From assembly GCF_054482595.1 (NCBI RefSeq), contig NZ_JBTHVH010000001.1: a stretch of DNA of 64,000 nucleotides. One strand, given 5' to 3'. A program made the position numbers. The first letter of the stretch is position 1; each line of letters begins with the position of its first letter. Source of the DNA: a plasmid. Positions 24,001-27,000 of this stretch are shown here, one piece after another.

Positions 24001-27000
24001 TTTGTTCAGCCAGCTCGGCAGCCAGGCGCAGAGCTTCGGGGAGTGTTTGGGGGAGCACTGGAGAAGCAGTGTTAGCCTGCTGCAATTCCTCCAGTTTGTC
24101 GATCAGCGAACGGCGGACCGCTTTTGACTCGCGCGCGGCAACTCGCAGGGCTTGTTTGTAGGTCATGGAGATAGTTTCAGATGTTGTGTTGTTTAATTTT
24201 TGCACTACGAAAATTTCGTAGTACTCACCATCCAGTTCATCCTTAACTCTGGCAATAAAATCATTATTGCGAACTGGTTTTTCGCTGCATAATTTCCGCG
24301 CTTCATTGACCATCTTCAACAATGTTTGGCTGTCTATTGTGTCGCCGCTGTTGGGGATAACATTCACGGCTGGTGCAGTTGTTCCCAAAGACTTCGTAAC
24401 TACAGCGTCTGGTTTGCTTGCTTTCATTCTGTGTGCCTCCTTGCGTGTTTCGGCTGCGACGGTTGCGTAATTCAGATGCCCCTGTTCGAGCAGGTATTCA
24501 CGGATATCGGTTAGCAGAATGCGGTGAACCGCGTGTTTGTCCTTTCTCCGGTAAAGTTGTTTGGTGATCATGAAGTAGTTGGCAATAACGCCTGGTATAT
24601 CCCTGGTACTGATACAGGCAGTGTGCTGTTCAATTGCCTCGATCATCTCTTCACGGGTGACTAATGACGTTCTCATAGTCCCTCCTGAGCAGAAGCGTTA
24701 ACAGGGAGGCACCAGTAACTGAGAGAATTGCGCAAATCGGTAGAAAAGCGGGCAGAGAAAATACAGGGAGCATCCGGAAGCTGAGAACGTGCCTCATCTT
24801 CTGTTGGTGCGATAACGAAGTGATAGTGACGTTTCTGGCAGGAGTAAAAGCGCCAGATAAATTCAGGGCGTGCGCAAGGATTGGCATTAACCATAGTTAC
24901 GGCCTCATGTACAGGTTTAACAACCTGCTATCCGCTGCTAAACGGGTGGCAGGACGTGACGGGGTTAGCAGACTGGCGTACATGAAACCAGCAGGCCGAA
25001 GCCTCCCCATCACGCCCCACCATAATTCGGGCGTAACGTGGTTTTACGGACACAAAAATACCGCAATATCGGATATCTGCGGTTGTCCGCATGTACATTC
25101 AGGCTGCTAAACCCGGTCGCAGAATTTGCTACGACGGCGGAACTATAAGCCTGAATGACAGGAAGATCAATAGTCTGGCGTTCAATGGTAGTATTTTTGC
25201 TCCAATAAATCAAATCTATTAGAGCAATAAATTATTATCCCAAGCTTTACAGTGCGCTGTAAAATTCAAACCTTCGGGTCAGTGGCGGAATCGTATTTCA
25301 CTCACGGAATGAGTATTATTAGTTTTGTCATACATAGCTAGGTAATGAATCACTTGAAGGAACTACGAACATGTCCGTGACCATTAGCGTCCTGCTGGAA
25401 AACAGACTTAAGCTTGGAGTTAAAAACTCGCTGCGTGCTAAAGCAGGACTTAGTCTGTTGATACAGGATGAAAACGATTCAATCCTGTTTGATACTGGGC
25501 CTGATGATAGCTTCATGTATAACGCAGGTTTAATGGGGGTCGATTTGACAAAACTGACCGCAGTTGTACTTTCCCATGGTCACTATGACCACTGCGGAGG
25601 TGTTCCGTGGATACCAGACACATGCAGGATAATATGCCATCCTATGGTGTCGGATGAGCGCTATTCGGCAATCAGGTTTTTAGGCTATACCGCCAGAATA
25701 AAAAAATTATCATTACATAATGATTTTTCACGTTTCCGCATGGAATACAGCAACACACCATTGCATATCAGTGAGCGTTTTATGTGGTCAGGAGAGATCC
25801 CTGTTGCCAGGCCACGCGCTTACGGTGTTATCGGGTGTAAGAATACGAAAGAAGATTACGTAAAAGATGAGGGGGTTTTAATTTATAAATCAGACTATGG
25901 GTTGATCATTTTTATCGGTTGTGGTCATTGCGGGGTAATTGATATTGTGCGCCACTGCCAAAATATAACCGGGATAAATCATATTCATGCAATTTTTGGT
26001 GGTCTTCATCTGCGCTGTGCGTCCCCTCTTATGCTCTGGAAGGTGAGACAGTTCTTACGCCTTCATAAACCAGATAAGATAATGGGGTGTCATTGTACTG
26101 GCAAATGGGGACGCTTGTGGTTACCGGAATCAACCTCTCCGGCAACAGGTGATGTTTATGTTCTTGGATAGACATGGTGCTGTTTCTGTTCATGTCGATT
26201 GTGTGGTTGGGGGCAAGAAAGAATTCACCTTGCTGAATAAGTCAGAGATGGAGTTGCTGGCTGACGCCTATGAGATGGCAAACGTCATGCACTAATAAAT
26301 ATATTATTTTTAATGATAAATGATTGACAACTGACAAGTGACTTCAGCCAGAATCATCACACGCCCGGTACGGATGGATCCCTTTTCAAATATTCCATGG
26401 ACGGCACAGTCTGAGTACCGGGCGCTACCTTCAGTTGTATGTATTGCTAAGCCGCCGCTGGTGGCTTTTCTTTTTTGTAGGGGGCGCTATGGATAAGAAA
26501 ATATGCGTTGTTTCGATGAGCGTCGGCAAACCGGCGTCAATGACTGCTGCATGGATCAATAACGAGCTGATAATGGCTGAGCGGACCAGCTACCCTGAAC
26601 GCCGCCGCGATATGGAACTCCAGCTGCTGCGCGAATTGCGAGAAAAAGAGGAAAAGGGGTTTATCGTGCTGGTGGAAGAGGAAAACAGCTTTATTACTGG
26701 TCGAGTTGGCCAGCGTGTAAGGTTGCGCGATCCCTTCATGAACGGCAGGCCGGTACTAATTGAGGCAATGCAGATTTATAAGGAGTTGGAACGCCAGAAA
26801 GCAATCAAGTTACCGCGCAAGGAATCCGGCAAATACATCCTCCACCAAAGCATCTTCGATTCCGAACACGATAAAAAAGGCGATGAATTTTTCAACATCA
26901 ACTGGAGCGAAATAACGACAGAGCATGTTCTGACGTTACTATGTTGCTTTGCGACGGAATACAACAACGTTGCCAGCGCCGACTACATCAGGGCAATGGC

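What the first reader, a model, noticed from the sequence alone, without database searches (positions are those of the whole stretch)
24880..25110. c4-like RNA 2 keeps the scaffold but changes the recognition loop, with a matching change in its own target
On the minus strand, 25021-24941 has the same layout as RNA 1: a terminal stem and an AGGC-UUCG-GCCU hairpin. The flanks UGGUU and ACGCCAGU are also conserved. Between those flanks, RNA 1 has ACCUUGG and RNA 2 has UCAUGU. The RNA 2 loop UUUCAUGUAC (plus-strand 24977-24986 region) pairs with GUACAUGAGG (plus-strand 24903-12). That target overlaps the GAGG ribosome-binding site of icd-2. An upstream GUACAUG copy lies at plus-strand 25090-25096. 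Loop and target have changed together between the two modules. P1 and P7 c4 differ in the same way, and that difference underlies their heteroimmunity. So one genome appears to carry two non-cross-reacting antisense locks.
Basis: partly seen in the sequence, partly recalled or inferred. Interest (0 to 1): 0.7.

Follow-up and report, generated by a model that had tools for sequence, protein, structure and literature searches.

The report
P1-type c4 RNA, new specificity
This is a real copy of the phage P1/P7 c4 antisense RNA whose four-base change in the recognition loop is mirrored in both of its target sites, so this P1-like plasmid-phage has a second, separately keyed lock on an anti-repressor gene; it is a well-documented extension of a known system rather than a new kind of system.

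Summary
Rfam finds two C4 antisense RNAs (RF01695): RNA 1 at 18486-18573(+) and RNA 2 at 25027-24942(-). The window is a P1-like phage-plasmid.

RNA 2 (mature form 25021-24945 by homology) matches P7 c4 at 73 of 77 nt. Only four b' loop bases differ (CAUGUAC vs CACAAUC). Both b targets carry the complementary GUACAUG: b1 at 25096-25090, and b2 at 24912-24906, which continues into the icd-2 Shine-Dalgarno (GAGG 24906-24903). Every P1-annotated immI element maps to a homologous position.

Cognate b'-b2 duplexes are -15 to -16 kcal/mol. RNA1/RNA2 cross pairs are -6 and -8, which is the shuffled background.

In IMG/VR this loop is one of at least 7 natural classes on the P1 scaffold. All co-vary with b1 and b2 (84 of 85 scored triples), and they are combined freely with two a-types. 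The closest complete plasmid has a third, P7-keyed module just outside the window.

So this is a new specificity allele of a known family, stacked with other such modules. Expression, orthogonality in vivo (RNA 2 shares a' with P7-type c4) and any benefit of stacking remain untested.

The parts
25212..25228 (-). C1 repressor operator upstream of module 2 (ATTGCTCTAATAGATTT), homologous to P1 Oc4/Op51
   Evidence: One mismatch to the operator consensus. There are 6 matches in the window against 0.01 expected. It maps onto the P1 Oc4 columns.
25142..25170 (-). Sigma-70 promoter-like site, TTGATC-17-TATAGT, homologous to P1 promoter P1c4 (P51b)
   Evidence: Promoter scan. It maps onto the annotated -35/-10 of P1c4.
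25096..25148 (-). c4-a1b1 leader motif. It holds a1 (TTAGCAG, 25110-25104, in a hairpin loop) and ends at the first base of b1 (GTACATGC, 25096-25089).
   Evidence: Rfam RF03163, 55.5 bits against a gathering score of 46.7. Positions are homologous to the annotated P1 a1 and b1.
25051..25082 (-). Hairpin CCGCAGAUAUC/GAUAUUGCGG followed by UAUUUUUGUG, between b1 and c4. It is terminator-like and conserved in P1 and P7.
   Evidence: Sequence, alignment and fold. The strict terminator scan did not call it.
24945..25021 (-). c4 RNA 2, predicted 77-nt mature antisense RNA. The b' loop is at 24987-24977 and the a' linker at 24971-24964.
   Evidence: Rfam RF01695, 71.7 bits. 73 of 77 nt match P7 c4 and the MFE fold is the same. 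Eight of 27 scaffold pairs show compensatory changes across variants.
24935..24941 (-). a2 target (TTAGCAG), complementary to a'
   Evidence: Homologous to the annotated P1 a2. It co-varies with a' across loci.
24903..24912 (-). b2 target GUACAUGAGG, overlapping the icd-2 Shine-Dalgarno (GAGG 24906-24903)
   Evidence: Homologous to the annotated P1 b2. The duplex with b' is 12 bp at -15.3 kcal/mol.
24673..24894 (-). icd-2 (73 aa), 81-82% identical to P1/P7 Icd. Its stop overlaps the ant-2 start (ATGA).
   Evidence: ORF list, alignment, overlap.
23624..24676 (-). ant-2 antirepressor (350 aa, KilAC/ANT domain), 77-80% identical to P1/P7 Ant1
18292..18308 (+). C1 operator-like site upstream of module 1
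   Evidence: 2 mismatches.
18383..18460 (+). isrK-type leader of module 1, the a1/b1 carrier. a1 is AUUGGCCU at 18408-18415 in a hairpin loop, b1 is GUCUAAGG at 18425-18432, and an intrinsic terminator lies at 18439-18463.
   Evidence: Rfam RF01394, 60 bits. Terminator scan. Duplexes with c4-1 are -11.7 (a) and -13.0 (b) kcal/mol.
18492..18570 (+). c4 RNA 1 (lambdoid-type scaffold). The b' loop is at 18527-18538 and a' at 18544-18552.
   Evidence: Rfam RF01695, 75.9 bits at 18486-18573. Fold.
18608..18619 (+). b2 of module 1 (CGUCUAAGGAGG), covering the icd-1 Shine-Dalgarno. a2 is AUUGGUCU at 18577-18584.
   Evidence: The duplex is -16 to -17 kcal/mol with 12-13 bp.
18628..19964 (+). icd-1 (18628-18849) and ant-1 (18846-19964; ORF6N + KilAC domains)

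Best explanation
Module 2 (25228-23624, minus strand) is a complete immI-type operon of the P1/P7 kind, carrying a c4 antisense RNA of a distinct specificity.

Proposed mechanism, following P1:
1. A promoter behind a C1 operator transcribes a1/b1, then c4, then a2/b2, then icd and ant.
2. The 77-nt c4 is cut out of this transcript. In P1/P7 this is done by RNase P.
3. Its b' hairpin loop (UUUCAUGUACG) and single-stranded a' linker (CUGCUAAC) pair with b2 (GUACAUGAGG, covering the icd Shine-Dalgarno) and with a2.
4. This blocks icd translation. Because ant is coupled to icd (ATGA stop/start overlap), it also blocks antirepressor synthesis.

The four-base b' change, copied in b1 and b2, re-keys the lock. 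As a result c4-2 and the lambdoid-type c4-1 of module 1 each fit only their own leader. In close relatives a third, P7-keyed module is also present.

Shown here: family membership, architecture, three-site covariation, cognate versus cross pairing energies, and recurrence in nature.

Inferred: transcription, processing, repression in vivo, and that stacking differently keyed modules widens both immunity (more incoming ant operons silenced in trans) and escape (an ant that a resident c4 cannot silence).
For: - Family: Rfam C4 and c4-a1b1 hits above gathering scores.
- Identity: 73 of 77 nt match P7 c4, and the differences are confined to the loop.
- Architecture: the operator, promoter, a1, b1, c4, a2, b2 and icd start all align to the annotated P1 features. 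C1 operator match. Promoter.
- Payload: intact icd and ant with a 4-nt overlap.
- Specificity: cognate b duplexes are -15.3 and -16.0, against cross pairs of -6.0 and -8.0 and a shuffled mean of -7.
- Generality: in a 7x7 matrix of natural loop classes, cognate pairs are -14.4 to -15.3 and cross pairs -3.9 to -10.3. The heteroimmune P1/P7 pair falls among the cross values. b', b1 and b2 co-vary in 84 of 85 complete triples, and by inspection in the classes the regex missed.
- Structure: scaffold helices are kept by compensatory changes.
- Recurrence: the same c4 occurs at 100% identity over the 256-bp query in the 12 listed complete E. coli plasmids (>=99% band 12 records) and in the cultured phage vB_EcoM-Ro157c2YLVW.
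- Literature: c4 represses ant, and a 4-nt P1/P7 difference restricts cross-reactivity (PMC5320573 and PMC12197685, both citing Citron & Schuster 1990; PMC8198154).
Against: - There are no RNA-seq, Northern or reporter data for this element.
- The a' element and its targets are identical to the P7 type, so a co-resident P7-type c4 could bind a2 of module 2.
- Accessibility-corrected energies are less clean than duplex-only energies, and they depend strongly on leader folding.
- The a-zone duplex search is poorly discriminating.
- The hairpin between b1 and c4 is terminator-like, so read-through into c4 is assumed from P1, not shown.
- The co-residence statistics do not prove selection for orthogonality: 1 same-b pair of 17 against 3.6 expected, P about 0.09.
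- One contig carries an exact tandem duplicate of a module with the same key.
Confidence: 0.8

Rival explanations
1. The locks are only partly independent. Module 2 shares a'/a1/a2 with P7-type c4 (the third module in close relatives), so the resident P7-type c4 partly represses icd-2/ant-2 and the reverse. The modules would then form a hierarchy or redundancy rather than orthogonal locks.
For: - a', a1 and a2 are identical to P7.
- The a-zone duplexes are the same for module 2 and P7 c4 on both leaders.
- c4-2 keeps a 7-10 bp wobble-containing b pairing with the P1 and P7 Shine-Dalgarno regions, at -9.4 and -6.5 kcal/mol.
- The a- and b-types are recombined freely in nature.
Against: - The b' loop, which covers the ribosome-binding site, differs at 4 of 7 core positions. 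P7 c4 on the module 2 b2 region gives only -4.9 kcal/mol, weaker than the P1/P7 cross pair.
- One contig carries two copies that share b and differ only in a. This suggests the a difference alone is treated as a distinct key.
Confidence: 0.3
2. Module 2 is a recombination passenger. It is an immI cassette copied into the cre-ref hot-spot that is silent or neutral. Its loop/target match would simply be inherited from a functional ancestor rather than maintained here.
For: - The cre-ref and pacB-c1 sites are known variable hot-spots (PMC6906374).
- The payload is mosaic, and ref is truncated next to the insert.
- A same-key tandem duplicate exists elsewhere.
Against: - The icd and ant ORFs are intact, and the operator, promoter and all six pairing elements are conserved.
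- The 256-bp regulatory region is 100% identical in the 12 listed plasmids, from chicken, pig, human, water and wastewater.
- This loop class recurs at the same site in independent contigs, with either a-type and always with matched targets.
Confidence: 0.1
3. The upstream a1/b1 leader is an IsrK-like short RNA that titrates c4 or remodels the icd leader. The module would then work as a switch (decoy against antisense RNA) that activates ant under some conditions, not as a simple constitutive lock.
For: - Module 1's leader is an Rfam isrK hit with its own terminator.
- Module 2 has a hairpin plus U-run at the same place.
- In Gifsy-1, IsrK in trans activates orf45/anrP translation, and IsrK is complementary to the roughly 80-nt processed STnc1160, which lies where c4 lies here (PMC4825925).
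- Module 1's icd leader folds so that the a2 region pairs with the Shine-Dalgarno region.
Against: - For P1/P7, a1 and b1 are annotated only as putative sites.
- No canonical terminator was called in module 2.
- This reading complements the lock model rather than excluding it.
Confidence: 0.25

Closest known systems
c4 antisense RNA of the immI operon of phages P1 and P7 (Rfam RF01695; Citron & Schuster 1990)
   Same: - The 77-nt scaffold is the same: 73 of 77 nt match P7 and 71 of 77 match P1.
- The operon order is the same: C1 operator, promoter, a1 b1, c4, a2 b2/SD, icd, ant.
- Recognition uses the same two sites, with b2 over the icd ribosome-binding site.
- The way of changing specificity is the same: a few bases in a'/b' with matching changes in the targets.
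   Different: - The b' core is CAUGUAC, against CACUAAC in P1 and CACAAUC in P7. b1 and b2 are GUACAUG.
- The module sits between cre and the remnant of ref, not next to kilA-repL.
- It is an extra copy, in addition to module 1 and (in close relatives) the canonical immI.
- The 3' part of icd and the ends of ant are of the module 1 type (mosaic).
isrK / STnc1160(orf45) / anrP locus of Salmonella Gifsy-1 and the isrK + C4 units of Stx-converting lambdoid phages
   Same: Module 1 (RNA 1) is of this type: an isrK-like leader with a terminator, then C4, then a small ORF and an antirepressor. It is about 79% identical to many Stx phages, and one record annotates both RNAs.
   Different: RNA 2 has the P1/P7 scaffold and a c4-a1b1 leader, not isrK. 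Its a' and b' sequences and its targets are unrelated to those of module 1.
Phage D6 immI c4
   Same: It has the same P1-type scaffold and architecture, and it is another natural b' class (UCGUAAGU) with matched b1 and b2.
   Different: The loop class differs. D6 pairs it with the P1-type a' (CUGUCAAC).

Membership tests
C4 antisense RNA (Rfam RF01695; P1/P7 immI c4) | Match to the family covariance model above the curated gathering score, over the full length | tested here: met
   71.7 bits against 45, model positions 1-87 of 87, E=5.3e-12.
C4 antisense RNA (Rfam RF01695; P1/P7 immI c4) | A long terminal stem enclosing a UUCG hairpin and a second hairpin whose loop is b', followed by a single-stranded a' linker | tested here: met
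   The MFE fold is identical to those of P1 and P7 c4. In the consensus fold, 8 of 27 pairs show compensatory changes.
C4 antisense RNA (Rfam RF01695; P1/P7 immI c4) | a' and b' are complementary to a2 and b2 in the downstream leader, with b2 spanning the icd ribosome-binding site | tested here: met
   a2 is at 24941-24935. b2 is at 24912-24903 and overlaps GAGG. The duplex is -15.3 kcal/mol, reached by 3 of 2000 shuffles. Positions are homologous to the P1 annotation.
C4 antisense RNA (Rfam RF01695; P1/P7 immI c4) | Second copies of the targets (a1, b1) upstream of c4 in the same transcript | tested here: met
   Rfam c4-a1b1 (RF03163), 55.5 bits against 46.7. a1 is at 25110-25104 and b1 at 25096-25089.
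C4 antisense RNA (Rfam RF01695; P1/P7 immI c4) | Lies in an operon with icd and an antirepressor gene coupled to icd | tested here: met
   icd-2 is 81-82% identical to P1/P7 Icd. ant-2 is 77-80% identical to P1/P7 Ant1 and has a KilAC domain. The stop and start overlap as ATGA.
C4 antisense RNA (Rfam RF01695; P1/P7 immI c4) | Operon preceded by a C1 operator and the P51b-type promoter | tested here: met
   The operator has one mismatch. TTGATC-17-TATAGT sits at the homologous position. This is sequence-level evidence only.
C4 antisense RNA (Rfam RF01695; P1/P7 immI c4) | Processed from the precursor to about 77 nt (RNase P at the 5' end) | not testable with these tools
   The 5' GGUGGGG and 3' GCCACC ends and the flanking bases are identical to P7. 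No RNA data are available.
C4 antisense RNA (Rfam RF01695; P1/P7 immI c4) | Represses ant in trans and determines immI (hetero)immunity | not testable with these tools
   Only predicted pairing energies are available.
isrK Hfq-binding RNA (RF01394), considered for module 1's leader only | Match above the gathering score, with a terminal intrinsic terminator | tested here: met
   60 bits against 50. Terminator at 18439-18463. This applies to RNA 1's leader, not to RNA 2.

The most novel reading that the evidence does not exclude
P1-like phage-plasmids use a combinatorial two-site RNA code: at least 7 b-keys crossed with 2 a-keys, each always matched at three sites. They stack up to five differently keyed c4-icd-ant cassettes in one genome. 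The lock cassette (operator through icd codon 9) is swapped by recombination onto a shared icd/ant payload. Stacking would then be an adaptive arms-race device. Each extra c4 silences one more class of incoming antirepressor operon, and each extra ant is one more chance to escape a resident prophage's c4. The isrK/a1b1 leaders would act as decoys that set the threshold.
Probability: 0.4. Interest if true: 0.6.

Novelty: new member of a known kind. Interest (0 to 1): 0.4.

Why it matters
- It shows that the classic P1/P7 heteroimmunity trick, re-keying an antisense RNA and its targets by a few bases, is not a two-phage curiosity. It is a natural series of at least seven mutually non-matching keys on one scaffold, and several keys are often carried by a single phage-plasmid.
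- P1-like plasmids are found in about 10% of complete E. coli genomes and carry resistance and virulence genes. Which of them can coexist, exclude or induce one another may depend on these key sets.
- The natural key set is also a ready-made collection of candidate orthogonal translational repressors for synthetic biology.
- RefSeq annotation of these plasmids currently lists none of these RNAs.

Tried and rejected
- my first collection pattern had one N too many in the loop and found nothing. I corrected it after testing on the window.
- enumerating suboptimal duplexes of full-length c4 gave no loop sites, because the G-rich stem segments swamped the list. I replaced it with sub-window enumeration.
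- accessibility-corrected energies separate cognate from cross pairs well for the P1-type modules (about -13 against -4 to -9). They under-score module 1's own site, because its leader folds a2 onto the Shine-Dalgarno. I therefore report duplex-only energies for the unpaired recognition zones plus a shuffle control.
- a-zone duplex searches against whole leaders are dominated by alternative GC-rich sites, so I did not use them for discrimination.
- a test for selection for orthogonality among co-resident copies gave 17 pairs with 1 sharing b, against 3.6 expected (P about 0.09). That is not significant, and a same-key tandem duplicate exists.
- the strict terminator scan found none in module 2, although a hairpin plus U-run is visible.
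- the 78-aa ORF across isrK/c4-1, annotated 'ash family' pseudogene in RefSeq, has no Pfam match. I treat it as spurious.
- the primary papers (Citron & Schuster 1990 and 1992, Hartmann 1995, Heinrich 1994, Lobocka 2004, Gilcrease & Casjens 2018) are not held. The mechanism is cited through secondary sources and the P1 GenBank annotation. I cannot exclude that Gilcrease & Casjens 2018 already catalogued immI types.
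Full report
**What the window is.** The 9 kb around the finding matches P1-like phage-plasmids. The best match is E. coli plasmid pYZMc17-1_100k (NZ_CP123256.1) at 99.5% identity over 100% of the query, and 39 complete E. coli genomes share the whole arrangement. 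The gene order is:
- pacA, pacB
- module 1: isrK-like leader, c4-1, icd-1, ant-1 (plus strand)
- c1 (minus strand), coi region, cre
- module 2: ant-2, icd-2, c4-2 (minus strand)
- an MBL-fold gene, a truncated ref, mat.

**Checking the observation.** Rfam finds two C4 antisense RNAs above the gathering score. RNA 1 is at 18486-18573(+), 75.9 bits. RNA 2 is at 25027-24942(-), 71.7 bits. RNA 1 is preceded by an isrK hit and RNA 2 by a c4-a1b1 hit. The two small corrections are that the loop UUUCAUGUAC lies at 24987-24978 and that the mature 3' end, by homology, is 24945. The b2 target GUACAUGAGG (24912-24903) contains the GAGG located 8 nt before the icd-2 AUG at 24894. The upstream GUACAUG is at 25096-25090.

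The heptamer or its complement occurs 12 times in the window. Three of these lie within 191 nt in the order target, loop, target.

**What RNA 2 is.** I aligned the regulatory region with the annotated immI regions of P1 (NC_005856) and P7 (AF503408). Module 2 is 91-94% identical to them. Every annotated P1 element has a counterpart at the homologous position: operator Oc4, promoter P1c4, a1, b1, the 77-nt c4, a2, b2 and the icd start.

The predicted 77-nt RNA (25021-24945) matches P7 c4 at 73 of 77 positions, and the four differences are all in the b' loop. The b elements compare as follows:

| Phage or module | b' core | b1 and b2 |
|---|---|---|
| P1 | CACUAAC | GUUAGUG |
| P7 | CACAAUC | GAUUGUG |
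| Module 2 | CAUGUAC | GUACAUG |

Module 2's a', a1 and a2 are the P7 type (CUGCUAAC / UUAGCAG). P1 has CUGUCAAC / UUGACAG.

RNA 1 has a different scaffold sequence, although the structure is conserved: 8 of 27 pairs show compensatory changes across variants. It has its own a' (AAGGCCAAC) and b' (ACCUUGGACG), with matched a1 and b1 inside the isrK-like leader and matched a2 and b2 over the icd-1 Shine-Dalgarno.

**Cross-pairing test.** IntaRNA and RNAup were not available, so I used ViennaRNA duplex energies for the unpaired recognition zones against whole leaders.

| c4 | Leader | b-zone duplex (kcal/mol) |
|---|---|---|
| c4-1 | icd-1 (cognate) | -16.0 |
| c4-2 | icd-2 (cognate) | -15.3 |
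| c4-1 | icd-2 (cross) | -8.0, at an off-target site |
| c4-2 | icd-1 (cross) | -6.0 |

Shuffled leaders average -7 to -9 (sd about 2), and at most 14 of 2000 shuffles reach the cognate value. An accessibility-corrected version gives summed a+b values of about -13 for cognate P1-type pairs and -4 to -9 for cross pairs. It is unreliable for module 1, because that leader folds a2 onto its own Shine-Dalgarno. The prediction that would have refuted the finding, cross pairing as strong as cognate pairing, is not observed.

This gave 144 P1-scaffold c4 genes in seven b' classes:

| Class | Loop | Count |
|---|---|---|
| P7 | UCACAAUC | 46 |
| P1 | UCACUAAC | 31 |
| D6 | UCGUAAGU | 27 |
| Module 2 | UCAUGUAC | 21 |
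| E | UCAUUCGU | 16 |
| F | UCACAAGU | 2 |
| G | UCUUGAAC | 1 |

- b1 and b2 match b' in 84 of 85 loci where all three were extracted. They also match by inspection in the classes my regex missed.
- The single exception, L046, has class E b' and b1 but a P1-type b2.
- The two a-types occur with every common b class, always with matching a1 and a2.
- A 7x7 matrix of loop against leader has a clean diagonal: cognate pairs are -14.4 to -15.3 and cross pairs -3.9 to -10.3. The experimentally heteroimmune P1/P7 pair sits at -8.2 and -8.5, inside the cross range.
- Module 2 against the P7-type gives -6.5 and -4.9.
- The module 1 scaffold also has a second specificity, with co-varying a and b sites.

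**Where and how often.**
- The module 2 class lies mostly at the cre-ref site: 11 of the 16 copies in the first scan, against 2 next to kilA. It is over-represented in multi-copy contigs, being present in 9 of the 16 contigs with two or more c4 genes.
- One 97-kb contig has five c4 genes.
- Among complete E. coli genomes, 535 of 5426 carry the P1-type c4 regulatory region, with up to 5 places per genome. Twelve records fall in the >=99% identity band for module 2's 256 bp, and the 12 listed are 100% identical.
- The cultured Punavirus vB_EcoM-Ro157c2YLVW carries the same c4, unannotated.
- In the closest plasmid, a third module with the P7 key sits next to kilA (c4 at record 1826-1911). The window ends at about record position 4170.

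**Do co-resident copies avoid sharing a key?** Of 17 co-resident P1-scaffold pairs, only one shares the b class, and that pair differs in a'. The expected number is 3.6, giving a permutation P of about 0.09. One contig has an exact tandem duplicate of module 1 with the same key. The data are consistent with selection for distinct keys but do not demonstrate it.

**Mosaic structure.** The two modules of the window share 450 nt at 94% identity and 442 nt at 87% identity as inverted repeats flanking c1-cre. The first repeat starts right after icd codon 9. So the payload is shared: the 3' part of icd and both ends of ant. The lock cassette, from the operator through the Shine-Dalgarno, differs. 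Ant-1 has an ORF6N middle domain, and Ant-2 has a P7-like middle. Both modules sit behind C1 operator matches; there are six in the window against 0.01 expected.

**Mechanism.** The established facts for P1/P7 come from secondary sources and the P1 GenBank annotation, because the primary papers are not held:
- c4 is processed to about 77 nt by RNase P.
- a' and b' pair with a2 and b2 around the icd ribosome-binding site.
- This prevents Ant synthesis.
- A 4-nt difference between P1 and P7 restricts cross-reactivity.

From my own knowledge (Biere, Citron & Schuster 1992), blocking icd translation leads to Rho-dependent termination before ant. Applied here, c4-2 should lock icd-2/ant-2 and c4-1 should lock icd-1/ant-1, each blind to the other. 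Everything beyond sequence architecture and predicted pairing is inference.

The a1/b1 leaders may act as decoys. Module 1's leader is an Rfam isrK hit with a terminator. In Gifsy-1, IsrK in trans activates the downstream small ORF and antirepressor, and it is complementary to the roughly 80-nt processed STnc1160 that occupies c4's position.

**Comparison with what is known, and novelty.** RNA 2 meets every sequence-testable defining feature of the P1/P7 c4 family. Processing and repression cannot be tested here. [quoted passage not shown] In the searchable literature I found no analysis of their c4 loop specificities or of the natural set of keys. Gilcrease & Casjens 2018 could not be read. 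I therefore class this as a new member (a new specificity allele) of a known kind, with a modestly novel population-level picture.

**Verdict.** Interest is moderate: a specialist would find it expected in principle. The value lies in the clean three-site covariation, the seven-key orthogonality matrix and the stacking of keys in one replicon.

Noticed in passing
window 18383-18460 (+), and Gifsy-1 as described in PMC4825925: The Rfam isrK hit is the a1/b1 leader of module 1. Its hairpin loop AUUGGCCU and the following GUCUAAGG are complementary to a' and b' of c4-1. This suggests that isrK and c4-a1b1 are homologous elements, although Rfam does not place isrK in clan CL00128. It also suggests that Gifsy-1 STnc1160 ('orf45') is a c4 homologue, so IsrK may act by titrating a c4-like RNA.
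   Followed up: partly
L003 1826-1911 (-) in NZ_CP123256.1, outside the window: The closest complete plasmid has a third c4-icd-ant module at the canonical site next to kilA, with the P7 key. The window ends about 2.3 kb short of it, so the window's own replicon probably has three locks.
   Followed up: yes
window 18655-19104 / 24418-24867 and 19534-19975 / 23613-24054: There are two long inverted repeats (450 nt at 94% and 442 nt at 87%), formed by the shared icd/ant parts of modules 1 and 2. They flank c1-coi-cre, so homologous recombination between them could invert the immC-cre segment.
   Followed up: partly
window 18285-18602 (L001 20784-21101): RefSeq annotates an 'ash family protein' pseudogene across the isrK-like leader and c4-1. 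The 78-aa ORF has no Pfam match, so this is most likely an RNA region mis-called as a CDS. Neither c4 nor the leaders are annotated in that record.
   Followed up: partly
window 25371-26300: Module 2 is adjacent to an MBL-fold metallo-hydrolase gene (25371-26171). In the closest plasmid ref is reduced to a C-terminal fragment, so the insertion of module 2 plus the MBL gene appears to have destroyed ref.
   Followed up: no
L046 (IMGVR_UViG_2565956613_000015): This is the only locus of 85 in which the lock and key do not match: b' and b1 are class E (ACGAAU type) but b2 is the P1 type (GUUAGUG). It may be a natural recombinant whose icd/ant escapes its own c4 or is controlled by another one.
   Followed up: no
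L135 (IMGVR_UViG_2698536372_000019): Two identical module 1-type units (leader, c4, icd, ant) lie in tandem 1566 bp apart with the same key. This is either a recent duplication or an assembly artefact.
   Followed up: partly
window 61319-64000: There is an exact tandem duplication with a period of 1341 bp (61319-62659 equals 62660-64000), absent from the closest plasmid. The second copy ends flush with the end of the window, so it may be an assembly or contig-end artefact.
   Followed up: partly
window 5251, 18292, 21407, 21490, 25212, 38436: There are six matches to the 17-bp C1 operator consensus (two mismatches or fewer) against 0.01 expected. This gives a partial map of C1-controlled promoters in this element.
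   Followed up: no
window about 27130-27900, compared with L001 29680-30984: Relative to pYZMc17-1 the window lacks about 1.36 kb. In that plasmid this region encodes a SIR2-family protein downstream of mat. It is a variable, possibly defence-related, cargo site.
   Followed up: no
window 18570-18630 (+): In module 1's icd leader, the a2 region (GAUUGGUCUCUU) is predicted to pair with the Shine-Dalgarno/b2 region. This resembles the translationally inactive 'structure A' described for isrK-orf45. c4 or leader binding at a2 could therefore open or close the ribosome-binding site.
   Followed up: no
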